A DNA stretch of 64,000 nt from an uncultured Clostridia bacterium (GCA_934132775.1 CAKPAA010000005.1:11839-75838), one strand, 5' to 3'. Shown: positions 4,257 through 44,012, counted from the first letter of the stretch. Numbers and translations: made by a program. The notes: generated by a model from the sequence alone, not told the origin.

Positions 4257-4295
4257 CGTCTTCCCCCTCTCTTTCAAAGTAAAAACATTTTACGT

Positions 4296-11925: not shown

Positions 11926-14085
11926 TTATGACTTTTCATAGGAACTTTTATCTATTGTTTTTCCATGTGATTGCTCATATTCTCTTTTTCTATCATCAAG
12001 AGCTGTTAAAAGCTGTTTCTGTTCTTCTTCTAGCCTTCCAAGTTTAGTTTGACTATAACTTCTAGCATGTGTTTCTCGTTGTTCTTGCTCTGCCATATCC
12101 AATTTTTGAACACTTTTATCATCAGCTTGAAAACCAGTACCATCTTCATAAAAATCTGCTATGTCAGAAAAAACCCTTTGTGGAACTCCATCTCCCAACT
12201 CACCATTTGGAGCATCAAATATTCCAAAATACTTGATTTTTCTATTGTTTTGAGGATTTTCGTCTAAACTTCTATATTCGACTCTGTTATGAGCAACATC
12301 TCTATATATTTTAGATTTAAAACTATATCCGTGTTCCGTATAATACTTCATTGCACTATCTAATCTATCTTGCATTGTTTCGCCATAATGCTCTCTAAAC
12401 AATTCTCCAGTTTCATAATTCATGCTTCTAGGCTGATAAGACATATCATACATAGGCATAATAGGAATAGATGGATTAACACGTTCTATTTTTCTTCTTC
12501 CATCACCACTTACAATTTCTCTAAATGCGGGTTGCCCATCTTTTCCATAATTTCCTGGTCTTGATGCCTCATGTTCTCCAACATAATATGCAAAATCAAT
12601 TTGTTTATAACTATCTAAATCAAAGTCAAAGCCAAACAATTCTTTAAAATCCTTTATACCACAAGGATATGGCAAAGTTTCATCAGGAATTGGAATTGAA
12701 CCTACTGCTCCACCAACGCAGCATTTGCTTACAATTTCTGGATGTATCATTGCAAATCTTTGAGCAAAAACCCCTGATGCAGAATAACCACTCAGAAAAA
12801 CTTTCTCGGAAACAGATTTTCCTGTAATTTCTTCAATTTTCCTTTTAGCTGATTCTATACATTCTAAATATTGAGTATCCATTCGTTCTTCAGGTGCTTT
12901 TTCTTCTATACAATCACGAGAAAGTTCCTGAAAGTACCCCTCTCCATCTATACTAGGAACAATTGGAATAACAATAGGAGCATCTTTTACAGATTTAAGT
13001 ATTCTATTTGCTGTTCCTAATGCACTAACTGAACTTCTATCATCAAATCCAACAATATTTCCTCTTTTATCACTTTCTTTATTTAAACTTTCAACAATAA
13101 TTTCTGAATTGTCTTTCATTCCATCAGGAATAACTAATAAATACGGAATAGAAGACCCCTCAATTATCATATAACCTTCATACTTTTTTCCATCATGTTC
13201 AAATTGACTAATAGTTGTAAAATAATCACTTAAACAATCTGTTTTTTCTGGAAGTCTAAGACCATATTTACCCATTGTCTTTAATAAACAATCATCTCTC
13301 TTTTGAACAAAATCAGCAAAATTACCAATATCTAATACATCTGTTCTTCTTTGTTCAGACGAAAAAACATATTTTACACCCATTTGATTTAGCCTAATTA
13401 ATTCATCTTGCCACATAGCAAATGCTCCACCATGAGTTTCAGAAATAGTAGTACATAATGTGCCATTTTCTATACCATGAGAATATACATTACCTCCCAT
13501 TAAGCCTCTTTCTTTTTGATCTGGATTTACTCTTGATGAATATCTTTTTGCTACATCATAATCAGTAGTCCAATAAGAAATACCATCTCGAATACTATAA
13601 ACTCCTTTTTCATCAGGGACACCAATCTGACTAGGATCAAGTTCTTCGGCTGTGCCATGATACAACATGTCTGGAGATGAAATACTTTGTGCTTTATATT
13701 TAAAAATTTCACCTAATTTAGGGTCTAAAACTCTTTCAACATCATAGCCTTTCATTTTCATATCATCAATTAAAACTTGCAATTTAGCTGAATAAAAAGC
13801 TCTTGAAGCTAAACATTTTTTTATCCAATCGCCTAAATCTTGCTTTGACGAATCATTATTAACATCACGATATATCCAATAATCCTGCATACCAATATCA
13901 TAGAATAAATCAATTAAAAGTAATGCAGATGCTTGTTCTTCTGTTCTATCTCTTCCTCTTTTTCTTGCTTTTTCAATATACTTTTTTAGCGACTCATTAT
14001 TTTGTCGACGAAGCATATCTATTTCTCCATCAGTAAGAGAAAACTCCGATCTTCTTGGAATAGTATTCAAACGTTTCACCACCAT
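11926..14085 (-). CDS. Large multidomain protein with alpha/beta-hydrolase (GxSxG) core; N-terminal domain of unknown, possibly ART-like, fold
   Basis: Nucleophile-elbow 'FLSGYSASGVFAQRF' lies in the middle of the 719 aa. There is no signal peptide. The N-terminal region contains 'MLYHGTAEEL' and 'GISYWTTDYDVAKRYS'. Confidence 0.55.
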   Translation of the reverse strand: MVVKRLNTIPRRSEFSLTDGEIDMLRRQNNESLKKYIEKARKRGRDRTEEQASALLLIDLFYDIGMQDYWIYRDVNNDSSKQDLGDWIKKCLASRAFYSAKLQVLIDDMKMKGYDVERVLDPKLGEIFKYKAQSISSPDMLYHGTAEELDPSQIGVPDEKGVYSIRDGISYWTTDYDVAKRYSSRVNPDQKERGLMGGNVYSHGIENGTLCTTISETHGGAFAMWQDELIRLNQMGVKYVFSSEQRRTDVLDIGNFADFVQKRDDCLLKTMGKYGLRLPEKTDCLSDYFTTISQFEHDGKKYEGYMIIEGSSIPYLLVIPDGMKDNSEIIVESLNKESDKRGNIVGFDDRSSVSALGTANRILKSVKDAPIVIPIVPSIDGEGYFQELSRDCIEEKAPEERMDTQYLECIESAKRKIEEITGKSVSEKVFLSGYSASGVFAQRFAMIHPEIVSKCCVGGAVGSIPIPDETLPYPCGIKDFKELFGFDFDLDSYKQIDFAYYVGEHEASRPGNYGKDGQPAFREIVSGDGRRKIERVNPSIPIMPMYDMSYQPRSMNYETGELFREHYGETMQDRLDSAMKYYTEHGYSFKSKIYRDVAHNRVEYRSLDENPQNNRKIKYFGIFDAPNGELGDGVPQRVFSDIADFYEDGTGFQADDKSVQKLDMAEQEQRETHARSYSQTKLGRLEEEQKQLLTALDDRKREYEQSHGKTIDKSSYEKS

Positions 14086-14109
14086 TTTACGATCTTTTTA
14101 TATTTTTAA

Positions 14110-14361
14110 TCATTGTTCTATTTGAAGGACAAACAAATCATATTCGCCAATACTTATTTGGTTGTCTTTATTTCCATGGTCAAATATTTCCCGATAAACA
14201 TCTAAACATTGCTTATTATCAAGACATAATATTGATGTTTTTAATGTTCCTATCTGCTTTCCACTCAAAAACCTCTTTTGTCTATCAATAGAATAACTAT
14301 CATTACTAAAATCATGTTGAATCCTATTAAAAAGAGAATTCGCCACTTTAAATAAATTCAT
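14110..14361 (-). CDS. Small hypothetical protein immediately upstream of the hydrolase gene
   Basis: 83-aa ORF ending 24 nt before the 719-aa gene. No motif recognised. Confidence 0.35.
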   Translation of the reverse strand: MNLFKVANSLFNRIQHDFSNDSYSIDRQKRFLSGKQIGTLKTSILCLDNKQCLDVYREIFDHGNKDNQISIGEYDLFVLQIEQ

Positions 14362-14447
14362 TGGTTATCACATTTTATATAATTTAACAAAATACAAAAT
14401 CTCTCGATGATATTTTACTTCATTTGAAATAATTTGTATATATCTTT

Positions 14448-14700
14448 TTGAAACTTTCTCATTTCATTGTTTGTACAGATGCTGGACTTGCCTCTAATGA
14501 AAATAGAGCTTTTAATAACATTCAAAATAGGTCATATATTGTTACATATAGAATATTAAAAACAGAATTTAAATCGAGACTTGTTTATCTTAAAAATGAT
14601 GACAGAATTAAAGCATATTTTACCACTTGTTTCATTACGAATTTTCAGTTATTTATTAGTTCTAACGTGTTACTATCATATTCTAAAGTTATATTGTCAT
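14448..14700 (+). pseudogene. Internally deleted IS4/IS1634-type DDE transposase remnant
   Basis: The translation 'IVCTDAGLASNENRAFNN..SYIVTYRILKTEFKSRLVYLKNDDRIKAYFTTCFI' joins a second-Asp block (xxxDxGxxSxxN) directly to the C-terminal 'E-F+xxKSxLxxRPvYxxxxxRIxAHFxxCF' block. The roughly 100+ aa normally between them is missing, and the tail is low-complexity. Confidence 0.5.
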
Positions 14701-14714
14701 CCAGCTTTTACAGT

Positions 14715-16487
14715 TTACTTTTCACATTTGCCAACATCTTTTTCCTTATTTCTAAAAATAAATCGTCCTATGTCTTTTAATTTTTGATGAACCCTTTGTA
14801 AATCGAAATTATCTAATCCCAAATCTATTGCTTTTCTTGCCACTCCAAATAATTCAGAAATACCGCTCTTGCCTTGCTCCTTTCTTAAATTTGAAATTGC
14901 TTTACGAAATGCTTGTTTCTTTTGTTTCTCTGAAATAGGAGGCTGTTCATACTCGGAAGAAACTGTATTTTTCTCATATTCAAAAATATCATGTCCTTTA
15001 AAATCAGCATCGGATTTTAAGCAATAAGGCAATGAATATCTTCCACTCTTTATATAGTCGGCATCCCAAGTTAAATCTGTCAAATACCAATTATTATCAA
15101 TCATTACACGATTCCAAGCGTGCCCACTCAAATCTGGATTTTCGCTATTAAGTTTCAGTATTTTATTCTTCTCTTCTTCAGTTAATCCTGCAGCAATACA
15201 TTCACTTTTTATGCCAATACAAGCTAATGTATTTTGCAATATTTCAGCATAACCAGTGCAAACAGCCTTGCCGTCTACTAAACCACCATATAAATTCGCA
15301 GAGTTTTTACGTAGATTGTAATTCTCGTTGCATTTACTCTTACAGGCCACAAAATCATAATCAATTATTTTTCCCAATTGGCTATACACATATGCAAATT
15401 TTTCCAACTCGTTTGCATCACTAGGTATTCTAGAAATAATTTTATCTATTTTGCTCCTTATTAATCCATATTCTTCTGGAGTATATTTATGTATTTCCGT
15501 TTCATATAATTTTAGTGAAATTCCTCTAAGGTTGTGACTGTTTGCTAAATCATCTATTGTAAATTCAGAGGCGTCAGACATTTCCAAATAAGTTGGAATA
15601 TGTATATCACTTTTTTCTTTAATCTTTTTATAGCTAGTAGCAGAAGCATAAAACGTTGCGTTAGTTAAAGAATCCATCTCCTCAATTGCTGCCATCACAT
15701 CTTCTCTGCTCATATCAATTTCATCATCTAAAATAATTTTTAAATCTGCAAGTTTAGAAAAATCATATCTGTTTCTTAATTTGCAATAAGCATTAAACGT
15801 AATGCTTTCACACGGAAATTTTTCAATTGCATCTGCGATGTCACTAAATTTTTTATCATAAAATCCAATATTTCCTTTTCTTTTTACAATTTCGTCTATC
15901 ACTCTTTCTTCATCGCTAAATTCACATTCTGAAAATCTAAGTACAGTCTCATCTGGCAACTTGCTTACCATTTGCAAATTTGATATATTACAATTGCTAA
16001 AACTTAACTTTTTTAAACCTGTCCATTGTGCGAATATATCAGGATCGGCAGACGAAAAGTCTATATGACTCAAACTTAAATCTCTTAGTGAATCTTTTGA
16101 AATATCAATTATTTTTTGTATCAGCCTTAAATTATCTCCGTTTATCGTGGACTGATAAATGAATGCTTCACTCAAATTCATATGACTAATTGCAAGGCAT
16201 AATTCATCTTCAAATTCTTTCTTATTAGGTATTTCTTCTTTAATAGCTATGAAAATCTTATCCAAATTTCCAAGTGCTGTTTCTTCTATTCCCTTTTCGT
16301 CATCATATAACTCAATATGATACGGCTCGCCAAATCTTTGAAAAATATATTGTTCTTTTTGCTCTGGTGTCAAAGCACCCCCCATAGCATCTTCATAAGA
16401 CTTGCATACTTTATCATTGCGTATATTACGTTGTATAATTGCAGCATTAACAATAGCTGCCACACTTTTGTTCTTAAATTTTATCAT
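14715..16487 (-). CDS. LRR-like + transglutaminase-like cysteine protease domain protein
   Basis: Cys-His-Asp core: 'GKAVCTGYAEILQNTLACIGIK ... SGHAWNRVMIDNNWYLTDLTWD'. The N-terminal half has leucine-rich-repeat-like units (LRDLSLSHIDFSS..., LKKLSFSNCNISNLQMVSKL...). No signal peptide. Confidence 0.7.
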   Translation of the reverse strand: MIKFKNKSVAAIVNAAIIQRNIRNDKVCKSYEDAMGGALTPEQKEQYIFQRFGEPYHIELYDDEKGIEETALGNLDKIFIAIKEEIPNKKEFEDELCLAISHMNLSEAFIYQSTINGDNLRLIQKIIDISKDSLRDLSLSHIDFSSADPDIFAQWTGLKKLSFSNCNISNLQMVSKLPDETVLRFSECEFSDEERVIDEIVKRKGNIGFYDKKFSDIADAIEKFPCESITFNAYCKLRNRYDFSKLADLKIILDDEIDMSREDVMAAIEEMDSLTNATFYASATSYKKIKEKSDIHIPTYLEMSDASEFTIDDLANSHNLRGISLKLYETEIHKYTPEEYGLIRSKIDKIISRIPSDANELEKFAYVYSQLGKIIDYDFVACKSKCNENYNLRKNSANLYGGLVDGKAVCTGYAEILQNTLACIGIKSECIAAGLTEEEKNKILKLNSENPDLSGHAWNRVMIDNNWYLTDLTWDADYIKSGRYSLPYCLKSDADFKGHDIFEYEKNTVSSEYEQPPISEKQKKQAFRKAISNLRKEQGKSGISELFGVARKAIDLGLDNFDLQRVHQKLKDIGRFIFRNKEKDVGKCEK

Positions 16488-16667
16488 ATGTCAAGACTCC
16501 TTAATCTTATTTTTTATCTCTTATTAACAAATTGAAAAAGTATTTTTTGAAATATGAAAGTAGCAGACTTTTCAGCTCGTTACGCATCAAATTCATTCCG
16601 TATTGCATAAAGACTTCAATTTATATGAGAACTTTTCTCACTTGATACACTGAAGTTTTATCACTTT

Positions 16668-17120
16668 TTACTTTTTAAAAATTTTTCTAATAAAATTAAG
16701 CATTTTTTCAAAAAAATTATTCTTTTTTATTTTAACTATTTCATTTTCTATTTTAGTTGCCACTTCACTTTGACTGTTAGTTGCCTTATCATTGCCATCA
16801 GCATTTTTTTCAAGCAATAGTTCATATTCTTTGCTTCTCTTTTCAGCATTCATTTTATCGTTATCATCAATTTGTTTTTTCAACATATCTTTTTCTTCTT
16901 GATCGTCACAAAAATACTTGATATAAATATATGATAATAATGCTAATGTATCTTTATCTGATATCTGAAACTTAACTGGAATATCTTTATTTATTTGAAA
17001 ATCATAATTTGGAATAATGTTCTTTTTCATTTCTTCAACTAGACTACTTGGTAAGTCTTCTAGCAAATTTAAAGATTCAAGTGCAATATATGCTTCTGTA
17101 TAAGCTTTTTTACTTATCAT
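16668..17120 (-). CDS. Hypothetical acidic/helical protein
   Basis: 150-aa ORF. It is the first gene of the island on the minus strand. No motif recognised. Confidence 0.4.
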   Translation of the reverse strand: MISKKAYTEAYIALESLNLLEDLPSSLVEEMKKNIIPNYDFQINKDIPVKFQISDKDTLALLSYIYIKYFCDDQEEKDMLKKQIDDNDKMNAEKRSKEYELLLEKNADGNDKATNSQSEVATKIENEIVKIKKNNFFEKMLNFIRKIFKK

Positions 17121-18579: not shown

Positions 18580-18825
18580 AATAATTTTATTTAAACAAAC
18601 TTAATTTTTATTAAGTTCCACTTACTTTATTTCTATTTTTGTGGATATATTTTTATGATATGTATATATAAATTTCAGATTATATATTGAAAAAGAGAAC
18701 CTTGAAAAAACAAAGTTCCCTTTTTAAATTTTGTCAAACTATTAGAATTGACAATTTTGCATAATGACATTATTTGAATGTTTCTTAATGTTTAAACGCT
18801 TCCGCAAAAATCAGCTTTGTACATC

Positions 18826-20439
18826 TCAGCTGTACCTATGTTTTCTGCCTTTTTTCGCTGTCCAAGCGAAATTAGCATCATTAAGCATTTGTTCTTGGGC
18901 ACAAGTAAGTTTGATACCACCCGAGCGAATACTTTGAACCCATTGCCCAAGTTTGTTTCCTTCCGGAGTTATAAAATCAAATGGCACATAACCGTTTTGA
19001 TTATACTTTAGAAAGTCCTCATACCATTCCTCAAACTTACGGGTCTTTCTTATTTTTTCCCAGCGAAAACCTGCCTGACTAAGCTTTTCCTTTTGCTCAC
19101 TGGTCAATTTAGTACGTCCTGAACGAACGCTCCAAACCCAATGGCCAAGTATATTTCCTTCCGGAGTTATAAAATTTACTGATACAAAGCCATTTTGATT
19201 ATACTTTAGAAAATCTTCATACCACTCTTCAAATTTACGAGGCTTTCTATGCACTAACCAGACAAAATTAACATCATTAAGCATTTGTTCTTGGGTACAA
19301 GTAAGTTTGATGCTACCCGAGCGAATACTTTGAACCCATTGACCAAGTTTGTTTCCTTCCGGAGTTATAAAATCAAATGGCACATAACCGTTTTGATTAT
19401 ACTTTAGAAAGTCCTCATACCATTCCTCAAACTTACGGGGCTTTCTTATTTTTTTCCAGCGAAAACCTGCCTGACTAAGCTTTTCCTTTTGCTCACTGGT
19501 CAATTTAGCACGTCCATAACGAACACTCCAAGCCCAATAGCCAAGTATATTTCCTTCCGGAGTTACAAATCTAAATGGTACAGAACCATTTTGATTATAT
19601 TTCAAGAAATCCTTATACCATTCTTCAAACTTACGAGGCTTTCTTTGCATTGCCCAAATAAAATTAACATCATTAAGCATTTGTTCTTGGGCACAAGTAT
19701 GTTTGGTACCACCCGAGCGAATACTTTGAACCCATTGACCAAGTTTGTTTCCTTCCGGAGTTATAAAATCAAATGGCACATAACCGTTTTGATTATACTT
19801 CAGAAAGTCCTCATACCATTCCTCAAACTTACGGGGCTTTCTTATTTTTTCCCAGCGAAAACCTGCCTGACTAAGCTTTTCCTTTTGCTCACTGGTCAAT
19901 TTAGCATGTCCTGAACGAACTTTATTAAACCAGTGACCAAGTCTGTTTCCTTCCGGAGTTATAAAATCAAATGGCACATAACCGTTTTGATTATACTTCA
20001 GAAAGTTCTCATACCATTCCTCAAACTTACGGGGCTTTCTTATTTTTTCCCAGCGAAAACCTGCCTGACTAAGCTTTTCCTTTTGCTCACTGGTCAATTT
20101 AGCATGTCCTGAACGAACTTTATTAACCCAGCGACCAAGTTTGTTTCCTTCCGGAGTTATAAAATCAAATGGCACATAACCGTTTTGATTATACTTCAAA
20201 AAGTCCTCATACCATTCTTCAAATTTACGAGGCTTTCTTTGAGGCGCTGACCAGACAAAATTAACATCATTAAGCATTTGTTTTTGATCATCAGTCAATC
20301 TAATGCCCCCTGAGCGAACATTATTAACCCAGATACCAAGTTTTTTTCCTTCTGGAGTTATAAATTTAACTGGTACAGAGCCATTTTGATTATACTTCAA
20401 AAAGTCCTTATACCATTCTTCAAACGTCCGTCTTGCCAT
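18826..20439 (-). CDS. Stand-alone helicase-associated (HA, PF03457-like) repeat protein, 8 repeats
   Basis: The protein is eight ~66-68-aa units of the form 'RKFEEWYEDFLKYNQNGYVPFDFITPEGNKLGxWVxxxRSG..KLTxEQ...L...GFxW'. This is the W..F..L..y...G...vp......LG.W....R consensus of the HA domain. It ends in a basic tail, KKGRKHRYS. Confidence 0.8.
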   Translation of the reverse strand: MARRTFEEWYKDFLKYNQNGSVPVKFITPEGKKLGIWVNNVRSGGIRLTDDQKQMLNDVNFVWSAPQRKPRKFEEWYEDFLKYNQNGYVPFDFITPEGNKLGRWVNKVRSGHAKLTSEQKEKLSQAGFRWEKIRKPRKFEEWYENFLKYNQNGYVPFDFITPEGNRLGHWFNKVRSGHAKLTSEQKEKLSQAGFRWEKIRKPRKFEEWYEDFLKYNQNGYVPFDFITPEGNKLGQWVQSIRSGGTKHTCAQEQMLNDVNFIWAMQRKPRKFEEWYKDFLKYNQNGSVPFRFVTPEGNILGYWAWSVRYGRAKLTSEQKEKLSQAGFRWKKIRKPRKFEEWYEDFLKYNQNGYVPFDFITPEGNKLGQWVQSIRSGSIKLTCTQEQMLNDVNFVWLVHRKPRKFEEWYEDFLKYNQNGFVSVNFITPEGNILGHWVWSVRSGRTKLTSEQKEKLSQAGFRWEKIRKTRKFEEWYEDFLKYNQNGYVPFDFITPEGNKLGQWVQSIRSGGIKLTCAQEQMLNDANFAWTAKKGRKHRYS

Positions 20440-20495
20440 TTAAAGTCATCTCCATTCTTTGTAGTAGTTGAATTAAAAAGTAGACACAAAACTTT

Positions 20496-21512
20496 TTAAT
20501 TGTAGCTATGATTCTTCCCTTTTTTCACGAGCCAAACAAAATTGGCATCATTAAGCATTTGTTTTTGATCATCAGTCAATCTAATGCCCCCTGAGCGAAC
20601 ATTATTAACCCAGATACCAAGTTTTTTTCCTTCTGGAGTTATAAATTTAACTGGTACAGAGCCATTTTGATTGTACTTCAGAAAATCTTCGTACCACTCT
20701 TCAAACTTACGGGTGTTTCTTTGCATTACCCAAATAAAATTAACATCATTAAGCACTTGTTTCTGTTTACAAGTAAGTTTAATACCACCCAAGCGAATAC
20801 TTTGAACCCATCGCCCAAGTTCGTTCCCTTCAGGAGTTACAAAGCTCCGTGGTACAGAACCATTTTGATTATATTTCAGAAAGTCCTCATACCATTCTTC
20901 AAACTTACGAGGCTTTCTTATTTTTTCCCAGCAAAAACCAACCTGGCTGAGCTTTTCCTTTTGTGCATTGGTCAATTTAGTACGTCCTAAACGAATACTT
21001 TGAACCCATAGTCCAAGTTTGTTTCCTTCCGGAGTTACAAATCTAACTGGCACAAAGCCATTTTGACTATATTTCAAAAAGTCTTTGTACCATTCTTCAA
21101 ATTTACGAGGCTTTCTTTTCATTGCCCAAATAAAATTAACATCATTAAGCATTTGTTCTTGGGCACAAGTAAGTTTGATGCTACCCGAGCGAATACTTTG
21201 AACCCATTGACCAAGTTTGTTTCCTTCCGGAGTTATAAAATCAAATGGCACATAACCGTTTTGATTATATTTCAAAAAGTCCCAAAACCACTCCTCAAAT
21301 TTGCGATATTTGCCTTTTACTGTCCAAACAAAGTTGGCATTTTTCAACATTTGTTCCTGTTTAGAAGTAAGTTTAGCCTCGCCAGAGCGGACTCGTTGAA
21401 CCCAAGCACCAAGGCCATTGCCTTCTGGAGTCACAAACCCACCTGGCACAGAACCATTTTGATTATATTTTAAAAAGTCCTCATACCATTCTTCAAACGT
21501 CCGTTTTGCCAT
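20496..21512 (-). CDS. Stand-alone HA-repeat protein, 5 repeats
   Basis: Same repeat unit x5, with tail KKGKNHSYN. Only 56 nt separate it from the next gene, with no promoter copy, so the two are probably co-transcribed. Confidence 0.8.
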   Translation of the reverse strand: MAKRTFEEWYEDFLKYNQNGSVPGGFVTPEGNGLGAWVQRVRSGEAKLTSKQEQMLKNANFVWTVKGKYRKFEEWFWDFLKYNQNGYVPFDFITPEGNKLGQWVQSIRSGSIKLTCAQEQMLNDVNFIWAMKRKPRKFEEWYKDFLKYSQNGFVPVRFVTPEGNKLGLWVQSIRLGRTKLTNAQKEKLSQVGFCWEKIRKPRKFEEWYEDFLKYNQNGSVPRSFVTPEGNELGRWVQSIRLGGIKLTCKQKQVLNDVNFIWVMQRNTRKFEEWYEDFLKYNQNGSVPVKFITPEGKKLGIWVNNVRSGGIRLTDDQKQMLNDANFVWLVKKGKNHSYN

Positions 21513-21649
21513 TTAAAGTCATCTCCCAATCCTTGTATCAATTGAATTAAAATGTTTAATTAGTGCGTGTTTCCCAGCATATGTTGCACATTATGCTAAG
21601 AAAAAGATTTTAGTTTCAAGTACGTCTGTAAAAGTAGACACAAAACTTT

Positions 21650-22072
21650 TTAATTGTATTTATGTTTTCTACCTTTTTCCGCTGACCAAACAAAATCGGC
21701 ATCATCTAGCATTTGCTTTTGCTCAGCAGTCAATTTGAGCTGCCCAGAACGAATGTTATGAATCCAAATACCAAGCCTGTTACCTTCTGGAGTTATAAAA
21801 TCTCTTGGCACATAACCGTTTTGATTATATTTCAAAAAGTCCCAAAGCCATTCTTCAAATCTGCGATATTTGCCTTTTATTGTCCAAACAAAGTTGGCAT
21901 TTTTCAACATTTGTTTCTGCTCAGAAGTAAGTTTGGTATCGCCAGCACGAACTCGTTGAATCCACGTACCAAGTTTGTTGCCTTCTGGAGTCACAAACCC
22001 ACCTGGCACAGAACCATTTTGATTATATTTTAAAAAGTCCTTATACCATTCTTCAAACGTCCGTTTTGCCAT
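21650..22072 (-). CDS. Stand-alone HA-repeat protein, 2 repeats
   Basis: Same repeat unit x2, with tail EKGRKHKYN. The conserved 5' UTR/RBS block 'gggagatgactttaaATG' lies upstream. Confidence 0.8.
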   Translation of the reverse strand: MAKRTFEEWYKDFLKYNQNGSVPGGFVTPEGNKLGTWIQRVRAGDTKLTSEQKQMLKNANFVWTIKGKYRRFEEWLWDFLKYNQNGYVPRDFITPEGNRLGIWIHNIRSGQLKLTAEQKQMLDDADFVWSAEKGRKHKYN

Positions 22073-22195
22073 TTAAAGTCATCTCCATTTTTTGTAGCAA
22101 TGAATTAAAATGTTTAATTAGTGTAGGTTTTCTATCATATGTTACGCATTATGCCAAGAAAAAAAGACTATCTATATGATTAGACTCTAAACTTT

Positions 22196-22816
22196 TTAAT
22201 TGCAACTGTGTTTTCTACCTTTTTTCAACGACCAAATGAAATTGGCATCATTAAGCAGTTGCCTCTGTTCATCAACCAATTTAATACGTCCTGCACGAAT
22301 ATTATTAACCCAGTTGCCAAGCTTATTTCCTTCTGGAGTTATAAAATTACATGGCACATAACCGCCCTGATTATATTTTAAAAAATCCAAAAACCATTCC
22401 TCGAATTTACGAGACTTCCTTTGCATTGACCAGACAAAATTAGTATTATTAAGCATTTGTTTTTGCGCAACTGTTAACTTAATGCTACCCGAACGAACAT
22501 TTCGAATCCAACGACCAAGTTTATATCCCTCTGGAGTTATAAATTTTGCTGGTAAAGAACCATCTTTACTATATTTTAAAAAGTCCATATACCATTTTTC
22601 AAACTTACGTTTCTTTTTTTTCAATGCCCAAATGAAATTGGCATCTTCAAGTAATTGTTTCTGCTCAAGAGTAAGCCTAATATCTCCACCACGAACATTG
22701 TGAACCCAGCAACCAAGCTTTTTTCCTTCTGGGGTTACAAAGTTATACGGTACAGAGCCATTCCGATTATACTTCAGAAAATCATCATACCATTCATTAA
22801 ATGTCCGCCTCTTCAT
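22196..22816 (-). CDS. Stand-alone HA-repeat protein, 3 repeats
   Basis: Same repeat unit x3, with tail KKGRKHSCN. It is the most divergent copy and lies directly behind the best promoter. Confidence 0.8.
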   Translation of the reverse strand: MKRRTFNEWYDDFLKYNRNGSVPYNFVTPEGKKLGCWVHNVRGGDIRLTLEQKQLLEDANFIWALKKKKRKFEKWYMDFLKYSKDGSLPAKFITPEGYKLGRWIRNVRSGSIKLTVAQKQMLNNTNFVWSMQRKSRKFEEWFLDFLKYNQGGYVPCNFITPEGNKLGNWVNNIRAGRIKLVDEQRQLLNDANFIWSLKKGRKHSCN

Positions 22817-22874
22817 TCAAAGTCATCTCCCAATCTTTATTGTAATTGAAAATTAAATTGTTTAACCAGTAAAC

Positions 22875-22903
22875 ATTCTAGCATATATCAAGCATTATGT
22901 CAA
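22875..22903 (-). promoter_or_regulatory. Sigma-A-type promoter of the HA gene array
   Basis: On the minus strand: TTGACA (22903-22898), 17 nt, TAGAAT (22880-22875). Homologous but degraded copies precede 21650..22072 (TTGGCA-17-TAGAAA) and 20496..21512 (TTAGCA-17-TGGGAA). Confidence 0.55.
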
Positions 22904-23125
22904 ATAAAGAAACTTATTAAATGCTTTATTTTAAAGTGTGTAACTTAACAAAGTAAATTTCATTTAACCATAATAGGAGTAGAAGTTACTTTTACAAGTT
23001 GTCTTTATTTTAGAGCCAATATCCAACTCTACCATTTCTCACATTTTATAATAATCTTGGCATAATAAAATCTTTTATAAAAACAAATAAGACCCTCAGT
23101 TTATGCTGAGAGCCTTTATTTGCAA

Positions 23126-23794: not shown

Positions 23795-25807
23795 CTAAAA
23801 TAAATCGATTATCCAACCAAACATTTTTTTAAGTACTAATAAAACTCTATCCCAGAAAGTTGTTTTTGTTGTGTTGGCTTCTAAGTCTCCTCCAAGTTCT
23901 TTTAAGTGCTTTATATCTGGTGTTTTTACTATAAATTGAACTTGTTCAACTTCATTTCTTTCATCGCCAAATGATACTGTTTTAGCATCTTTTTCAACTT
24001 CAAATAATGTTGTTTCATCATCTATTTTATCCCAGCCGTTATCAACTACGTCTTTAATTTTGTTTTTAGAATCTTTAAATTGATTCGTTTGATTTGTTAT
24101 TGCTTGCAATTGCTTTGTTAGTGAAAGTATTGCATTGGCTGTTTTATCGCTTCCTTCATAAATGTCTGAACTTACTATTTTCAAACCTTTATTTATATTG
24201 TCAATCATACTTGAACTTGTATTTGTCATATCAGTTAGTAAACTAATTATAGATTTTGCGTTTTCCATTGCAAGTGAAAAATCATCTTTGTTTTCTAATA
24301 TTTTATCACAATATTCTATCGAAGTATCTATAATTTTTTCTAATGAGTATGAAGTATCACTCAAATCGTGCATAAATTCTTTTACAACTTTTGCATCTTG
24401 CTCGCTTATTGTTTTTCTAACTGCTTCTAATTCGCTAGAAACATTATTCAAATCTCTTACTAATGCTACAATATTTTTCTGCAAAGTCTCTGACGTTGAT
24501 ATTTTATCTATGTTTTCAACTATTGCCTTAGCCGAACCAACAATGCTCAATAAATATGCTCTTGTTTCTTCGTCTTCTTCTTTCATTGCTAATGCGTAAG
24601 AGCTCTTAATTATAGTTTCCAAACTATCTTTTATTTCAGTCGTATCTATTTTTGAAGTATTTGTGATTAGCTTTGCTAAATCTTCTGTTAAAATGGATAG
24701 TTGACTAATTAAGCTTTTAATTTCTTTTACATTGTCAGGAAGTTTATCAGATTTCTCAGCCAAATAATCTATTGATTCATTTAAATCTTTTATATTTTTT
24801 TGCAAATCCTTCATATTGTCATTTAATTCTGTTGCCATTTCAACAATGATGTCATAATTCTTGCTTAAATTGTCTATATCCGTATTTATTTTTTCAGTTA
24901 ATGGAAGTATATCATTCAAAATTTTTTTCAAATTTTCGATATCTTCGTCTCTTGCCTCACTTAGTCCGTGTAAATCTGTTGTGCCTTTTTTAATTTGATT
25001 AACGCCATTAGATATGCCATTTAAACCAGTGTTCATTCCGTTTAATGAATTTAAAATAACATCTGAGCTTGCATTTATTGAGTCTAGTGCATCTTCGATG
25101 TCTTTTCTATCTTGCACCAAATCAGCAATTTTATTTAAAGCGTCACCATTTAATGCAACCATTGCCATTGTAATGCCGTCCATTTCGAAATCATCGCTTC
25201 CTAATTCAATATTTAAAGTTGTGCTTTGACCTGGTAACACGATAAACATCAATGTCTTGTTGTTTCCTGTATCTGTTATCATTGCTTCGCTTGAATCAAC
25301 ACTTAAATATTTGCTCATATCATAAGAGGCTGTAACTTCTAGTATGTAATTGTTTCTGTAATAACTTTTGCAATTTTCATTTGAAGTAAAATCAATAGTT
25401 ATTTTAACCAAGCCACTCTTGCCCAATAACTCTTCTGGTTTTACTTCAACGCCATTCAATTTGTATGAAATATTAAATTTCCAAGGAATATTGTTATAAT
25501 ACTCTTCTCCAACAGTTCCTGTATATGAAAAGTTTTTTTCCCCACTAACATTCCAAATGATTTCATCACCGCTTTGCGTATAACTGTCTCTATTAGAAAG
25601 GTTAGTTACCTCATTATACTTCGTATAATCAATAATTTCATCTGCACCATTTGTTGTACATTTACTATATATATTTACTTTTTCAACATCGCCATAGTCA
25701 CCCAAGTTTATATATACAGTTTCATTTTTCTTTAGTGTAGGCATAGCATAGCAGAAACTGCTAAATAAAATTGTTATAGCCAAAATGCTAGCAATACATC
25801 TTTTCAT
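23795..25807 (-). CDS. Secreted YhgE/Pip-like coiled-coil protein, translationally coupled to the MMPL transporter
   Basis: It has a signal peptide, a beta-rich N-domain, then xxxLxxG heptads ('LNSLNGMNTGLNGISNGVNQIKKGTTDL'). The ATG overlaps the MMPL stop codon (TAATG at 25805-25809). Confidence 0.5.
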   Translation of the reverse strand: MKRCIASILAITILFSSFCYAMPTLKKNETVYINLGDYGDVEKVNIYSKCTTNGADEIIDYTKYNEVTNLSNRDSYTQSGDEIIWNVSGEKNFSYTGTVGEEYYNNIPWKFNISYKLNGVEVKPEELLGKSGLVKITIDFTSNENCKSYYRNNYILEVTASYDMSKYLSVDSSEAMITDTGNNKTLMFIVLPGQSTTLNIELGSDDFEMDGITMAMVALNGDALNKIADLVQDRKDIEDALDSINASSDVILNSLNGMNTGLNGISNGVNQIKKGTTDLHGLSEARDEDIENLKKILNDILPLTEKINTDIDNLSKNYDIIVEMATELNDNMKDLQKNIKDLNESIDYLAEKSDKLPDNVKEIKSLISQLSILTEDLAKLITNTSKIDTTEIKDSLETIIKSSYALAMKEEDEETRAYLLSIVGSAKAIVENIDKISTSETLQKNIVALVRDLNNVSSELEAVRKTISEQDAKVVKEFMHDLSDTSYSLEKIIDTSIEYCDKILENKDDFSLAMENAKSIISLLTDMTNTSSSMIDNINKGLKIVSSDIYEGSDKTANAILSLTKQLQAITNQTNQFKDSKNKIKDVVDNGWDKIDDETTLFEVEKDAKTVSFGDERNEVEQVQFIVKTPDIKHLKELGGDLEANTTKTTFWDRVLLVLKKMFGWIIDLF

Positions 25808-28119
25808 TACTTACTACTTCCTTTCTTAAAATCTTTCTTTGCATTTGATGTCTTTTTAGTCTTACTGTAATTTTCATTTTTATTATCTAAACTTTTATTT
25901 GATTTTGTATCATCTTCTGTCTTATTAGGCGTTTCAACTTCATTATTTTTGTCAAGTTCGTCTGACTTCTTTACATTTCGGTCAAGATTTTTTTCTTTTT
26001 TGCCTAGTTCTTTTTGAGCTTTTTTCTCTCTTCTTTCTTGTATTTTCTTTCTAAGTTTTTTAATTCTGTCAGCTTTAATTGTAGACTTGTAAATCAAACT
26101 ATCAAATAAAGTTAAAACGTGTGGTAAGAAGAATATTACCAAGAACATACTAAGCAATGTTCCTCTACCTATAAGCTCACCGATTTCTGAAATTGCATTT
26201 ATACTTGAATTAAACTTAATCAAGTATGCTGCACAAGTCAAAATTCCTCCTGATGTTAGTATTGAGGGTATACTACGTTTAACAGCTAGCATAGAAGCCT
26301 CTTTCTTATCGTGTGTTTTTCTCTCATCCATATAGTTATTAGTAAACAATATTGCGTAGTCAATAGTTGCACCAAGCTGAATAGAACTTACAATTAAATA
26401 TCCTAAAAACATTATTGATTTACCTGTAAAATATGGTATAGCCATGTTTATAAAAATACCACTCTCAATAACAATAATAAGCACCAATGGCAATACTTTC
26501 GATCTAAAAGTAAATAAAAGTATTAAAAGCACCATTGCGATAGATAATAAATTTACAACGTTATAGTCTTTGTTTACAACATCACGTATGTTCATTGTTA
26601 TTGGAATAACACCTGTCATCTCGTAATTATCGCCATAATACTTACTAACAATATTACGAATCGTTTCTATCGAATTAAAAGCAAGTTCACTCTCTGATGA
26701 TGTTTTCAAATAAATAAGCATTCTTGAATATTTTTCGCTTCTAAACTTCTGATATGTATCTACTGGCACAAAACTATCTGGAATGCCTTCGCTAACCAAA
26801 TTAGCCAAAGACTGAACTTTTTTTACAACTTCCAAATCTTCAATTTCAGCAGCCAATTCTTTTTCGCTTATATAGTCTCCAACTGGAACAAGAACAATTA
26901 TGGGGTTACTTCTTCCAAATTTACTTACAATTGCCTTGTCATCTTCATAAACTTTTGTGCCTTCGCCTCCACCAAATGATGAAGAGCCATAAAGGAATAC
27001 GTTTTGCTTTTGAGCTACATATGACGGAATAGTAACTATAATCACAATTGCGATAATCAAATAAGAAAACTTATTCATAACCTCAGAAAACTTTCCAAAG
27101 CTTGGCATAAAAGATTTATGACGAGTCTTTTCTATCCAAGGATAAAACTTAATTATTAAGCAAGGCATAAAGAAAATAACTGAAAGCAAGCTAAAAACAA
27201 TACCTTTTGCAAAAACAAGTCCCATATCTTTACCAATTGTAAAGCCCATAAATACCAATGCCAAGAATCCTGCAACTGTTGTTAATGCACTAGAAACAAT
27301 AGAAGTACAAGAAGCTTTTATAGTCCTTACCATTGCCTCTTCAATATCTTCTTTGTCCTCAGTTTCAAACCTATGTAGCATAAACACCGAATAGTCCATT
27401 GAAACTGCTAACTGCAAAGCTGCAACAATACTATACGTCAAAAATGAAACGTGTTTAAATATTACGTTCGTACCCATATTTAGGAATATTGATGTGCCAA
27501 TAACAGCCATAAACAATAATGGTGACAAATAAGAATCTGTTGTCAATAACAAAATAACAATAACAACTGGAACAAGTATAATCATTATTTTACTAATTTC
27601 AGTTTTTACAGTATCTTGTGCAGATTTCGTATCAATAGCAGAGCCAATAATATTACTGCCCTCAGGCAAAATCTTATTTATCTCATCAACTGCTTTGTTA
27701 GTTCTAGAAGAATACTCATCTTCATCAAACATAATTTCAAAAAGTGCAGAGCCATCTTTGTAATACTCATTTAATTCATCTTGTGAAATAAAATCAAGAG
27801 GTCTATAAATGTCAACATCGTCGTCTAACCACATAACTAAATCAACACCATCAACCTTTTCAATTTGCTCCTTATACTCTTTTGCTTGAACCAAAGTAAC
27901 ATCATTTACCATAGCTCTTGCAAAACATTGCATAGAGAACTCTTCTTCAACAATATTAAGGCCACGCTTAGCATCCTCATCATCAGGTACATACTCTGAC
28001 AAATCATAATTTATCTTAACCATCGGCATTAGCATCAAACTAATAATAACTGCAACAATAAAACCAAGTCCAATCTTATTTCTATTTTTAACAATAAATC
28101 TCGCCAAATTATCTAACAT
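25807..28119 (-). CDS. MMPL-family (RND superfamily) membrane transporter with Lys-rich C-terminal tail
   Basis: Two homologous halves, each a TM helix, a large soluble loop and about 5 clustered TM helices. The context is TetR-MMPL. The last ~90 aa form a K/E/N-rich, low-complexity tail. Confidence 0.8.
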   Translation of the reverse strand: MLDNLARFIVKNRNKIGLGFIVAVIISLMLMPMVKINYDLSEYVPDDEDAKRGLNIVEEEFSMQCFARAMVNDVTLVQAKEYKEQIEKVDGVDLVMWLDDDVDIYRPLDFISQDELNEYYKDGSALFEIMFDEDEYSSRTNKAVDEINKILPEGSNIIGSAIDTKSAQDTVKTEISKIMIILVPVVIVILLLTTDSYLSPLLFMAVIGTSIFLNMGTNVIFKHVSFLTYSIVAALQLAVSMDYSVFMLHRFETEDKEDIEEAMVRTIKASCTSIVSSALTTVAGFLALVFMGFTIGKDMGLVFAKGIVFSLLSVIFFMPCLIIKFYPWIEKTRHKSFMPSFGKFSEVMNKFSYLIIAIVIIVTIPSYVAQKQNVFLYGSSSFGGGEGTKVYEDDKAIVSKFGRSNPIIVLVPVGDYISEKELAAEIEDLEVVKKVQSLANLVSEGIPDSFVPVDTYQKFRSEKYSRMLIYLKTSSESELAFNSIETIRNIVSKYYGDNYEMTGVIPITMNIRDVVNKDYNVVNLLSIAMVLLILLFTFRSKVLPLVLIIVIESGIFINMAIPYFTGKSIMFLGYLIVSSIQLGATIDYAILFTNNYMDERKTHDKKEASMLAVKRSIPSILTSGGILTCAAYLIKFNSSINAISEIGELIGRGTLLSMFLVIFFLPHVLTLFDSLIYKSTIKADRIKKLRKKIQERREKKAQKELGKKEKNLDRNVKKSDELDKNNEVETPNKTEDDTKSNKSLDNKNENYSKTKKTSNAKKDFKKGSSK

Positions 28120-28711: not shown

Positions 28712-28852
28712 TTTTTCGCCTCTTTCTAATATAAAATAAAAATCTAAAACAAAAGCTACTTTATTATGAATTATTTGTTTTTTCATTTTGCTATATCTAC
28801 TTTTGAATTCATACATTTGGCTTATCATAGCTTGTTGCTTAATTCAATAATA

Positions 28853-42859: not shown

Positions 42860-42875
42860 AAAGCTTTTTCTCCTC

Positions 42876-43826: not shown

Positions 43827-44012
43827 AAATCAAAGTCAAATTGTAAAATTCCATCCAAGGTACCTCGCTTGTGATGACAACTCATCACTAAATTTTAGAC
43901 TAATCCACTCTGTAATGCTCTTCTATTCACCATCTCCCTAAGTTGTTCTAAGAAAGTGTGTGAAAAACTCAGTTGCATCTTTCACACTAAAAATAAATAT
44001 ACCAGCCTCTAC

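What the first reader, a model, noticed from the sequence alone, without database searches (positions are those of the whole stretch)
18826..22816. Four tandem genes built exclusively of helicase-associated (HA) domain repeats: 18 repeats in a 4-kb array
The HA domain (PF03457) is normally a C-terminal accessory of helicases and is presumed to bind nucleic acid. Here no helicase is attached. Four adjacent paralogs consist only of 8, 5, 2 and 3 HA units, and each ends in a conserved basic tail (K/E)KG(R/K)(K/N)H(R/S/K)(Y/C)(S/N). Two repeat subtypes alternate. One ends '...KLTSEQKEKLSQAGFRWEKIRKP' and the other '...KLTCAQEQMLNDVNFIW..QRKP'. Most variation falls in a few positions: the pair after VP, and the residues around LGxWxxxxR. 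That pattern is reminiscent of modular repeat binders such as TALE- or PUF-like proteins. I know of no described function for stand-alone HA-repeat proteins.
Basis: partly seen in the sequence, partly recalled or inferred. Interest (0 to 1): 0.75.

Follow-up and report, generated by a model that had tools for sequence, protein, structure and literature searches.

The report
Variable array of helicase-less HA-repeat genes
Four neighbouring genes in an uncultured gut Clostridia bacterium encode basic proteins built only of 66-residue "helicase-associated" (HA) three-helix units; they are probably DNA binders, this architecture is already common in databases but unstudied, and the unit and gene numbers differ between strains.

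Summary
Four minus-strand genes (206, 140, 338 and 537 aa) consist only of 3, 2, 5 and 8 in-register 66-aa HA units (Pfam PF03457, E 4e-14 to 8e-56). Each ends in a basic KKGRKH-type tail.

They form one transcription unit, with a near-consensus promoter and a strong terminator, in a housekeeping region of an uncultured gut Clostridia genome. Orthologues are under purifying selection (omega 0.12-0.30).

AlphaFold predicts confident three-helix units joined by low-confidence basic linkers (pTM 0.30). That is beads on a string, not a TALE/PUF-like solenoid. Variation concentrates on the exposed face of helix 2, the loop before it, the start of helix 3 and the linker.

In strains whose flanks are 98-99.8% identical (95-98% in one more distant pair), the array is rebuilt from shuffled unit cassettes: 3-2-5-8, 3-2-5-5, 3-6, 3-2-3, 3-2-3-6 and 3-5-3.

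Helicase-less HA proteins are not rare. About 62 of the 150 best database clusters are HA-only, and RefSeq plasmids carry some. No paper found describes their function.

Best reading: multivalent DNA-binding proteins that diversify by unequal recombination. This is a new member of a known but uncharacterised kind.

The parts
23089..23116 (-). Terminator-like hairpin ending the upstream DUF308 gene. It separates that gene from the HA array.
   Evidence: 11-pair stem followed by a T-run. Sequence read.
22875..22903 (-). Near-consensus sigma-70-type promoter of the array (TTGACA, 17-nt spacer, TAGAAT, with TG before the -10).
   Evidence: 11 of 12 matches, the best site in the 4.9-kb scan. Consensus match only; function is inferred.
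22196..22816 (-). HA gene 1: 206 aa, 3 units (22807-22610, 22609-22412, 22411-22199), tail KKGRKHSCN, pI 10.0.
   Evidence: Orthologues in other strains have omega 0.12-0.17.
22073..22195 (-). Intergenic region paralogous to the array's upstream region. It holds a weakened promoter (TTGGCA 22157-22152, 17-nt spacer, TAGAAA 22134-22129), a 7-bp inverted repeat AATTAAA-CAT-TTTAATT (22119-22103) and the RBS GGAGATGA.
21650..22072 (-). HA gene 2: 140 aa, 2 units (22063-21866, 21865-21653), tail EKGRKHKYN, pI 9.7.
   Evidence: Omega 0.12-0.30 between strains.
21513..21649 (-). Paralogous intergenic region with a further decayed promoter (TTAGCA 21599-21594, 17-nt spacer, TGGGAA 21576-21571), the same inverted repeat (21561-21545) and an RBS.
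20496..21512 (-). HA gene 3: 338 aa, 5 units (unit 3 is the alpha subtype, the rest beta), tail KKGKNHSYN, pI 9.7.
20440..20495 (-). Short (56-nt) intergenic region. The promoter part is deleted and only the leader end and RBS remain, so gene 4 is probably co-transcribed with gene 3.
18826..20439 (-). HA gene 4: 537 aa, 8 units (r1 20430-20230 to r8 19041-18829; subtype order beta-alpha-alpha-beta-alpha-beta-alpha-beta), tail KKGRKHRYS, pI 9.7. Unit number is polymorphic or unresolved in other assemblies.
18687..18725 (-). Intrinsic terminator closing the array, upstream of the D-Ala-D-Ala carboxypeptidase gene.
   Evidence: 15-pair hairpin, -16.7 kcal/mol, z = -6.1 against 200 shuffles, followed by UUUUU. 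Sequence.

Best explanation
The locus is a self-contained four-gene transcription unit. It encodes paralogous, strongly basic, cytoplasmic proteins made only of HA three-helix domains.

**Proposed mechanism (inferred).** Each 66-aa unit folds on its own. Units are joined by short basic linkers (W-x-x-x-R-K-P-R-K-F). The proteins therefore act as flexible, multivalent nucleic-acid binders, most likely of double-stranded DNA. In this reading the invariant residues (F3, W6, F10, L11, Y13, F23, L31, W34, L53, F58, W60, plus the TPEG and LG turns) build the fold. Conserved basic and polar residues (R1, K12, R39, K44, T46, Q49 and the linker) would contact the backbone. The hypervariable exposed residues would tune what each unit recognises. 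These are positions 33/36/37/40 on one face of helix 2, 21-22 in the preceding loop, 42-43 in the turn, and 47-48 at the start of helix 3.

**How the array grows and changes.** It changes by duplication of whole genes together with promoter and leader, and by unequal recombination or gene conversion between 198/396-nt units. Strains of one species consequently carry different sets of unit cassettes.

**What is shown.** Gene structure, domain identity, predicted fold of the unit, purifying selection, positional variability, and strain-to-strain rearrangement.

**What is inferred.** DNA binding, the binding surface, and the cellular role. The cellular role is unknown. The link of HA-only genes to plasmids, a conjugative element and a phage, together with the strain-level turnover, points towards dealings with mobile or foreign DNA.
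For: **Domain and fold.**
- PF03457 is called with 3/2/5/8 stretches.
- The single-unit AlphaFold2 model has pLDDT 89 and pTM 0.73, with helices at 3-13, 31-40 and 47-55.
- Its best PDB match is 2KTA, the only solved HA domain (66 columns, TM 0.48).
- Its best viral matches are annotated HA domains (TM 0.80 and 0.77, probability 1.00).

**DNA binding of the HA domain (from the literature).**
- The 2KTA paper's title states that the structure 'indicates domain binding to DNA'. PMC12191111 cites HA domains as 'previously shown to bind DNA' when fused to PLD nucleases.
- HA domains sit in TniQ target-selector proteins of nrdD-targeting Tn7-like elements (10.1101/2025.07.27.667033, Fig. S3 legend).

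**Charge.** pI is 9.7-10.0 here and 9.2-10.8 in five distant HA-only proteins.

**Independent units.** The 8-unit model has units at pLDDT 80-90, linkers below 50 and pTM 0.30.

**Real genes.**
- Each has a conserved RBS and start, and a conserved tail.
- Omega is 0.12-0.30 between orthologues and 0.15-0.62 between close units.
- A promoter and a terminator bracket the array.

**Positional variability.** pN reaches or exceeds the mean pS (0.55) at positions 21, 33, 36, 42, 59 and 61, while core positions have pN near 0. The i/i+3/i+4/i+7 spacing places 33/36/37/40 on one helical face, opposite the conserved L31/W34/V35/V38.

**Turnover.** Flanks are 98-99.8% identical while HA genes are 75-96% identical and differently arranged. 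The alleles, written as unit-type strings, are: QWD|FG|PAMHE|ECCAUASA...|ECASA, ONX|PAMHBE, FG|JK|BBILBE, ON|BIILA|JAR, QWD|FG|CAV and QWD|FG|JAK|JACC.

**Link to mobile elements.** A 7-unit relative (48% identical) lies inside a type IV secretion gene cluster. HA-only genes are found on Prescottella, Tunicatimonas and Curtobacterium plasmids. A 414-aa phage protein is annotated as HA domain.
Against: - No experiment on any HA-only protein was found, and the 2KTA paper could not be read. DNA binding therefore rests on a title, one citing sentence and fusion contexts.
- Sequence and fold matches to 2KTA are weak statistically (E 0.3; E 0.92).
- The excess of change at variable sites is no more than expected for unconstrained surface residues (pN about equal to pS). 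The variable set was also defined on the same data, so selection for new specificities is not demonstrated.
- The window's array lies among housekeeping genes (D-Ala-D-Ala carboxypeptidase, HisRS, DinB, BipA), with no integrase or other mobile-element gene beside it.
- There are no hits in PADLOC defence models, in 50,697 GenBank phage records or in IMG/VR.
- The beads-on-a-string picture comes from a 12-sequence alignment. Low pTM may reflect shallow data rather than true flexibility.
Confidence: 0.6

Rival explanations
1. Programmable modular reader. Each HA unit reads a short, specific DNA (or RNA) element through its hypervariable residues, so the order of units spells a target sequence. 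This would resemble zinc-finger, TALE or PUF arrays, with strains carrying different 'words'.
For: - Near-identical scaffolds carry variation focused on one face of helix 2, the preceding loop and the start of helix 3.
- The basic linker is conserved, much like a zinc-finger linker.
- Cassette shuffling and copy-number change between strains resemble fast-evolving zinc-finger arrays.
- HA domains sit where TniQ proteins carry their site-specific DNA-binding domains.
Against: - No solenoid or fixed inter-unit geometry is predicted (pTM 0.30), and there is no fold match to TALE, PUF or armadillo proteins.
- 11-14 positions vary rather than a compact code.
- pN is about equal to pS at those sites, which neutral drift also explains.
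- The first two genes (unit types QWD and FG) are conserved among strains rather than diversified.
- No target repeats were looked for or found.
Confidence: 0.12
2. Detached accessory subunits. The HA-only proteins work in trans with an SF2 helicase or nuclease encoded elsewhere. They would supply the substrate-binding or targeting module that is fused to the enzyme in other genomes.
For: - The more distant homologues of the 537-aa protein (24-29% identity) include about eight ResIII + Helicase_C + HA helicases of roughly 900 aa. Such helicases carry 8-10 HA units.
- In locus L008 the 7-unit HA-only gene lies about 2 kb downstream of a 1703-aa DEAD/ResIII helicase that has no HA domain of its own.
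- In Pseudomonas plasmid NZ_CP044073 a 'helicase-related protein' and HA-only ORFs lie side by side.
Against: - No helicase domain was found among the window ORFs scanned against Pfam. However, several large ORFs have no Pfam hit and the rest of the genome is unseen.
- Four paralogues with 18 units and strain-specific cassettes are more than one partner enzyme would seem to need.
- The Pseudomonas case looks like a fragmented gene rather than a designed split.
Confidence: 0.15
3. RNA-binding or protein-binding scaffold. The arrays bind structured RNA or act as protein-protein adaptors rather than binding DNA.
For: - High positive charge and flexible multi-domain build are equally typical of RNA binders.
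- Nothing in the data separates DNA from RNA.
Against: The only experimental indication for the HA fold concerns DNA. All known fusion partners act on DNA: SF2 ResIII helicases, PLD nucleases and TniQ.
Confidence: 0.08
4. Non-functional debris or assembly artefact. The genes are decaying leftovers of a helicase C-terminus, or a mis-assembled repeat.
For: - Short-read contigs often end inside the array, one scaffold has an N-gap there, and unit counts of the fourth gene disagree (5 versus 8).
- Promoter copies decay along the array.
Against: - The ORFs are intact, with conserved RBS, start context and C-terminal tail.
- Purifying selection acts on them.
- Three of the four genes are reproduced at 99.7-100% identity in an independent assembly.
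- Units differ by 4-38% at the DNA level.
- HA-only proteins are widespread.
Confidence: 0.03

Closest known systems
HA (helicase-associated) domain, Pfam PF03457. The solved example is PDB 2KTA, residues 627-691 of Bacteroides vulgatus BVU_0683.
   Same: Same domain family. Same size (about 65 aa) and an all-helical three-helix build. 2KTA is the top PDB hit by both sequence profile and fold.
   Different: Here 2-8 copies make up the entire protein. Identity to 2KTA is only about 24%.
SF2 helicases with C-terminal HA arrays (ResIII + Helicase_C + HA x 8-10), for example Ruminococcus albus pRUMAL01 WP_013483605.1 and WP_013483606.1.
   Same: Tandem HA units in long arrays. The genes also occur as adjacent paralogue pairs.
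   Different: They carry an N-terminal motor of about 400-500 aa, which the window proteins lack entirely. Identity is about 25-30%.
RefSeq 'helicase associated domain-containing protein' without a helicase, on plasmids: WP_159026034.1 (Prescottella equi, 246 aa), WP_302211104.1 (Tunicatimonas pelagia, 337 aa) and WP_181437516.1 (Curtobacterium, 296 aa).
   Same: Same architecture (3-4 HA units and nothing else) and the same high pI of 9.6-10.8. They are likewise uncharacterised.
   Different: They are single genes on plasmids of other phyla, 24-26% identical, with a longer unit period (about 70-75 aa). No tandem paralogue array or strain-level cassette shuffling has been shown for them.
C2H2 zinc-finger arrays and Myb repeats (a working analogy, not homology).
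   Same: Small, independently folding helical DNA-binding modules on conserved short linkers. Variation is focused on exposed helix positions, and array length changes by unequal recombination.
   Different: The fold is unrelated and there is no metal site. Sequence-specific reading by HA units is unproven.
TALE and PUF repeat proteins
   Same: Tandem near-identical repeats with position-restricted variation.
   Different: Those have 33-36-aa repeats that stack into a rigid superhelix with 2-3 code residues. Here the units are 66-aa three-helix domains with predicted flexible linkers and 11-14 variable positions. There is no fold match.

Membership tests
HA domain family (Pfam PF03457) | Sequence matches the family HMM above the curated gathering score. 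| tested here: met
   186.7, 120.3, 53.2 and 71.4 bits against a cut-off of 28.4. There are 8, 5, 2 and 3 significant stretches covering profile positions 2-64 of 64.
HA domain family (Pfam PF03457) | All-alpha fold of about 65 aa, like the solved HA domain 2KTA. | tested here: met
   The AlphaFold2 unit model has pLDDT 89 and three helices. 2KTA is the top PDB hit but weak (TM 0.48, E 0.92). Predicted viral HA domains match strongly (TM 0.80 and 0.77, probability 1.00).
HA domain family (Pfam PF03457) | Binds DNA, as indicated for 2KTA. | not testable with these tools
   Only indirect support: pI 9.7-10 and literature statements. Binding assays are needed.
HA-carrying SF2 helicases | ResIII/DEAD plus Helicase_C motor domains in the same polypeptide. 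| tested here: not met
   none of the four proteins has a helicase-domain hit. HA units cover about 97-98% of close relatives.
Stand-alone HA-repeat proteins (RefSeq 'helicase associated domain-containing protein', HA-only) | The whole protein is tiled by HA units, with no other domain. | tested here: met
   units start at residue 4 and run to the short C-terminal tail. The same holds for about 62 of the 150 best representative clusters and for three plasmid proteins.
TALE-like repeat proteins | Two-helix repeats of 33-35 aa that stack into a continuous superhelix. | tested here: not met
   Units are 66 aa with three helices. Linkers have pLDDT below 50 and pTM is 0.30. There is no significant Foldseek match. 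The alignment is shallow, so rigid packing is unsupported rather than excluded.
TALE-like repeat proteins | Variation confined to a two-residue code per repeat. | tested here: not met
   11-14 positions per unit are highly variable.
PUF / Pumilio repeat proteins | Match to the PUF repeat profile and a crescent of about eight 36-aa repeats. | tested here: not met
   There is no PUF hit in the Pfam scan. Foldseek alignments to FBF-2 have TM 0.07 and E 0.39-0.78.

The most novel reading that the evidence does not exclude
HA-unit arrays are a bacterial class of modular, recombination-diversified DNA readers. Each three-helix unit would recognise a short DNA element through the hypervariable face of helix 2 and the start of helix 3, so that unit order defines a target. 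The strain-specific cassette sets would reflect an arms race with plasmids, conjugative elements or phages, which carry their own HA-only genes. If so, HA arrays would be a new natural scaffold for programmable DNA recognition, and a new kind of variable locus in gut Clostridia.
Probability: 0.1. Interest if true: 0.8.

Novelty: new member of a known kind. Interest (0 to 1): 0.45.

Why it matters
HA is a widespread domain: this profile alone found 3832 representative proteins. Its only functional handle is one NMR structure that suggests DNA binding. Helicase-less HA-repeat proteins are common in databases, but I found no study of them.

This locus is a good natural starting point. It offers four paralogues of graded length (2, 3, 5 and 8 units), a defined set of about two dozen unit types, and at least six natural alleles in near-isogenic backgrounds. 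That is the material needed to test whether HA units bind DNA independently, additively or sequence-specifically.

If the units prove to be modular readers, this would matter for protein engineering and for understanding strain-level variation in gut bacteria. If they are non-specific DNA coats or helicase accessories, the finding is an ordinary gene-family expansion.

Tried and rejected
- **Whole 8-unit model against PDB**. Only meaningless global alignments came back (TM <= 0.12), so it was dropped in favour of a single-unit model.
- **GTDB genome scan with the 338-aa protein**. No confirmed relative, so the species representative genomes either lack the array or are too diverged for the peptide patterns. 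I could therefore not inspect the locus in the roughly 20 sister species.
- **IMG/VR scan, GenBank phage tblastn and JGI metagenome scan**. These gave none, none and one weak hit. The family's close relatives are confined to ENA and Logan gut assemblies.
- **PADLOC and PHROGs**. No credible defence or phage family. The listed hits have no significant individual stretch and are repeat-inflated.
- **Extra Pfam hits** (MG2, DUF6906, Glyco_hydro_39 and others). All have zero significant stretches and were treated as repeat-summed noise.
- **The 2KTA paper** could not be retrieved. Its content beyond the title is cited only from memory.
- **Positive selection.** Per-site pN/pS cannot separate diversifying selection from relaxed constraint. 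I do not claim positive selection.
- **Bad rows in one calculation.** The PBP5 rows are out of frame because of my coordinate choice and should be ignored.
- **Palindrome as operator.** The 7-bp inverted repeat in the leaders could be an autoregulatory operator. In a 31% GC genome, and between duplicated sequences, this is not evidence.

Full report
**1. What is there**

The interval 18826-22816 holds four ATG-initiated ORFs on the minus strand. They are 206 aa (22816-22196), 140 aa (22072-21650), 338 aa (21512-20496) and 537 aa (20439-18826).

Pfam assigns all four to PF03457 (HA, 'helicase associated domain'). There are 3, 2, 5 and 8 significant stretches, at E 7.5e-20, 3.7e-14, 4.3e-35 and 7.7e-56. 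Every other listed family has zero significant stretches and is repeat-summed noise. NCBIfam has nothing relevant.

Splitting at the R-x-F-E-E-W motif gives 18 units spaced by 66 aa (one by 67). They begin at residue 4 and end in a basic tail: KKGRKHSCN, EKGRKHKYN, KKGKNHSYN or KKGRKHRYS. Tandem Repeats Finder independently reports a 198-nt period, and a better-matching 396-nt period in the longest gene.

The proteins have pI 9.7-10.0 and are rich in Trp, Phe and Tyr.

**2. More than chance, and not an artefact**

- Units are 62-96% identical at the DNA level, so this is an old, diverged array rather than a stack of identical copies.
- The first three genes recur at 99.7-100% nucleotide identity in an independent Hadza gut metagenome contig (L001) whose flanks are 98-99.8% identical.
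- The unit number of the fourth gene is less certain. L001 has a 339-aa version that is 100% identical but lacks units 3-5.
- Another scaffold (L093) has 100 Ns inside the gene, yet contains the diagnostic start of unit 3.
- Several short-read contigs end inside the array.
- Eight units is therefore plausible but unconfirmed. The difference may be real polymorphism or assembly collapse.

**3. Setting**

The window has 29-33% GC, and the array 35-37%.

Its neighbours are ordinary chromosomal genes. One side carries DUF308, a 670-aa coiled-coil protein, an MMPL transporter, TetR, HisRS and DinB. The other carries a D-Ala-D-Ala carboxypeptidase. Further out lie BipA, Tgt and pyruvate phosphate dikinase. 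No tRNA or Rfam family was found.

BipA is 96% identical to uncultured human-gut 'Clostridia bacterium' MAGs. About 20 sister species sit at 87-90%, and the next relatives at 67%. The host is therefore an uncultured gut Clostridia lineage, also seen in Hadza, rabbit and ruminant samples.

**4. Transcription unit**

- The DUF308 gene ends in a terminator-like hairpin (23116-23089).
- The best promoter match in the region follows: TTGACA, 17-nt spacer, TAGAAT with an upstream TG, 11 of 12 matches, at 22903-22875.
- After the fourth gene there is a 15-pair hairpin with a U-run (18725-18687; -16.7 kcal/mol, z -6.1).
- The three intergenic regions are paralogues of the upstream region. They share the RBS GGAGATGA and a leader with a 7-bp inverted repeat.
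- Their promoter copies weaken progressively: TTGGCA/TAGAAA, then TTAGCA/TGGGAA, then deleted before gene 4.
- So the paralogues arose by duplicating whole genes with their control regions. Arrays then lengthen by 198/396-nt unit duplication.

**5. Are they functional genes?**

Yes, on present evidence.

- Orthologues of genes 1 and 2 in other strains have omega 0.12-0.30, against 0.00-0.11 for the neighbouring genes.
- Closely related units have omega 0.15-0.62.
- Over 49 distinct units from five alleles, pN is 0.20 against pS 0.55.

**6. Fold**

The single-unit AlphaFold2 model is confident (pLDDT 89, pTM 0.73), with helices at 3-13, 31-40 and 47-55.

- Its top PDB match is 2KTA, the NMR structure of the HA domain of Bacteroides vulgatus BVU_0683. 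The match spans the full length but is weak (TM 0.48, E 0.92). The sequence profile also picks 2KTA, at E 0.3.
- Against predicted viral structures the top hits are clear. They are 'Helicase associated domain' of Siphoviridae sp. ctNU74 (414 aa; TM 0.80, probability 1.00), a 330-aa protein (TM 0.77), and giant-virus helicases.

The full 8-unit model shows eight such domains at pLDDT 80-90. The linkers fall below 50 and pTM is 0.30. It has no significant PDB match. The prediction therefore favours beads on a string, not a TALE/PUF-type solenoid. The caveat is that the alignment had only 12 sequences.

**7. Where the variation lies**

Across the 17 units aligned, 22 columns are invariant. They are mostly aromatic or aliphatic core residues, the TPEG and LG turns, and R1, K12, R39 and Q49.

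Entropy peaks at positions 8, 21, 22, 33, 36, 37, 42, 47, 48, 61 and 62. pN reaches or exceeds the mean pS at 21, 33, 36, 42, 59 and 61. In close unit pairs, 60-85% of the amino-acid changes fall in a 14-position set.

Positions 33/36/37/40 have i, i+3, i+4, i+7 spacing, opposite the conserved L31/W34/V35/V38. They therefore form the exposed face of helix 2. The two subtypes differ mainly in helix 3 (SEQKEKLSQAG versus CAQEQMLNDVN).

This fits a tunable binding surface. It is equally what unconstrained surface residues would show, so I do not claim positive selection.

**8. Strain-level turnover**

The same site, between DUF308 and the carboxypeptidase, holds different arrays in different assemblies. 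Flanks are 98-99.8% identical, or 95-98% for L006/L007.

| Array (aa) | Loci |
|---|---|
| 206-140-338-537 | window |
| 206-140-338-339 | L001/L092 |
| 204-406 | L003/L091/L094 |
| 206-140-208 | L108/L109 |
| 206-140-206 plus a further gene (>=266 aa, cut off in L111); L002, whose 5' end is missing, shows 140-206-404 | L002, L110-L113 |
| 204-336-208 | L006/L007 |

Clustering units at 88% identity gives about 24 types. The alleles then read as follows:

- QWD|FG|PAMHE|ECCAUASA
- QWD|FG|PAMHE|ECASA
- ONX|PAMHBE
- FG|JK|BBILBE
- ON|BIILA|JAR
- QWD|FG|CAV
- QWD|FG|JAK|JACC...

The promoter-proximal genes are stable. The distal genes are rebuilt from shared cassettes. Single-cassette insertions (PAMHE versus PAMHBE) and block deletions (CAU) are the signature of unequal recombination.

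**9. How unusual is a helicase-less HA protein?**

Not very.

- A profile of the units found 3832 proteins at E <= 1e-3 among 1.84 billion representatives, and 140 at E <= 1e-30.
- Of the best 150, about 62 have no non-HA stretch of 60 aa or more and carry 2-15 units. The list favours many-unit proteins.
- Those I looked up are unnamed. Most are metagenomic, and two of the ten also occur in NCBI records.
- Three RefSeq plasmids carry genes annotated 'helicase associated domain-containing protein' that I checked and found to be HA-only, with 3-4 units and pI 9.6-10.8. They are in Prescottella equi (a conjugative plasmid), Tunicatimonas pelagia (next to the replication initiator) and Curtobacterium (near Lsr2 and a PDDEXK nuclease).
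- A 461-aa, 7-unit relative (48% identical) lies inside a type IV secretion cluster (TrbC, TrbL, PrgI, VirB4-like). It sits about 2 kb downstream of a 1703-aa DEAD/ResIII helicase that has no HA domain.
- Close relatives of the window proteins number only about two dozen clusters, all from gut metagenomes.

**10. What is known about HA**

Three full-text searches found no paper on HA-only proteins. The relevant items are these.

- The 2KTA paper (Mills et al. 2013) has a title stating that the structure 'indicates domain binding to DNA' (seen in a reference list). The paper itself could not be opened. From memory, its abstract adds that binding specificity probably varies widely within the family.
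- A Tn7 preprint (10.1101/2025.07.27.667033) shows HA domains in TniQ proteins of nrdD-targeting elements from gut Clostridia. In such proteins that region is otherwise the DNA-binding, target-selecting domain.

**11. Interpretation**

The best-supported reading is a family of flexible, multivalent, basic nucleic-acid binders, most likely of dsDNA. In this reading the fold and the backbone-contact residues are conserved, and exposed helix-2, loop and helix-3 residues differ between units. The family is diversified by gene and unit duplication and by unequal recombination.

DNA binding, the binding face and the cellular role are all inferred.

The recurrent presence of HA-only genes on plasmids, in a conjugative element and in a phage, together with the strain-level turnover here, suggests dealings with mobile or foreign DNA. 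However, the window's array is chromosomal with no mobile-element neighbours, and it matches no known defence family.

The rivals are:

- a true modular sequence reader;
- detached accessory subunits for a helicase or nuclease encoded elsewhere;
- RNA or protein binding;
- debris or artefact, which is largely refuted.

**12. Verdict**

The domain call and the variability pattern are right. The implied rarity and the solenoid analogy are not supported.

This is a new member, a tandem and strain-variable one, of a known but functionally uncharacterised kind. Interest is moderate. It is a clean natural system for finding out what HA arrays do, with a small chance of revealing a modular DNA-recognition scaffold.

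Noticed in passing
window 11926-17120 (minus-strand ORFs of 719, 590 and 150 aa; also 11052-11426): These three ORFs have no Pfam, PADLOC or PHROGs hit. They are present in some strains (L001, L002, L004) and absent in others. In L108 and L110 the carboxypeptidase gene is followed directly by the aminotransferase gene, and L006 lacks only the 714/719-aa gene. This is a second presence/absence polymorphism right next to the HA array.
   Followed up: partly
L008 220-8935 (ENA ERZ24773508 contig): A 7-unit HA-only gene sits inside a type IV secretion/conjugation cluster (TrbC, TrbL, PrgI, VirB4-like). It lies about 2 kb downstream of a 1703-aa DEAD/ResIII helicase that lacks any HA domain. This may be a 'split' helicase-plus-HA arrangement on a conjugative element.
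   Followed up: partly
L009 3119-9701 (Ruminococcus albus pRUMAL01) and L103 371-6342: In two unrelated loci, pairs of adjacent paralogous SF2 helicases with HA domains lie immediately beside sugar-nucleotide or polysaccharide biosynthesis genes. The R. albus pair carries 10 and 8 HA units. The neighbouring genes include glycosyltransferases, PglD, DegT, Bac_transf and UDP-GlcNAc pyrophosphorylase. The reason is unknown.
   Followed up: no
window 22103-22119 and 21545-21561 (minus strand): A perfect 7-bp inverted repeat, AATTAAA-CAT-TTTAATT, lies between the promoter-like site and the RBS in the leaders of genes 2 and 3. A related TTAAA-CAA-TTTAA lies before gene 1. It could be an operator, or simply AT-rich duplicated sequence.
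   Followed up: no
window 28109-28828 and the DUF308-to-HA spacer 22817-23125: The TetR gene is called as 239 aa in the window-type haplotype and as 199-200 aa in haplotypes with 204-aa first HA genes. Only about 36% of the spacer upstream of the array aligns between haplotypes. The array's promoter region therefore differs between haplotypes too.
   Followed up: no
window 49540-55020 (minus), also 1899-4277, 4296-6209, 7875-9233 and 47108-48649: Several large ORFs (1826, 792, 637, 452 and 513 aa) have no Pfam family at E <= 1e-5. The 1826-aa ORF is the largest gene in the window and is wholly unannotated.
   Followed up: no
window 42001-44000: A local GC peak (0.41, against about 0.30 elsewhere) coincides with overlapping ORFs on both strands (41927-43826). 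No Rfam or tRNA hit explains it.
   Followed up: no
window 23795-25807 (minus): The 670-aa protein between the MMPL transporter and DUF308 gives weak hits to ATG17-like and to coiled-coil parts of the ZorA, JetC, LmuB and DruC defence models (E 6e-6 to 7e-3). This is probably generic coiled-coil similarity rather than a defence gene.
   Followed up: no
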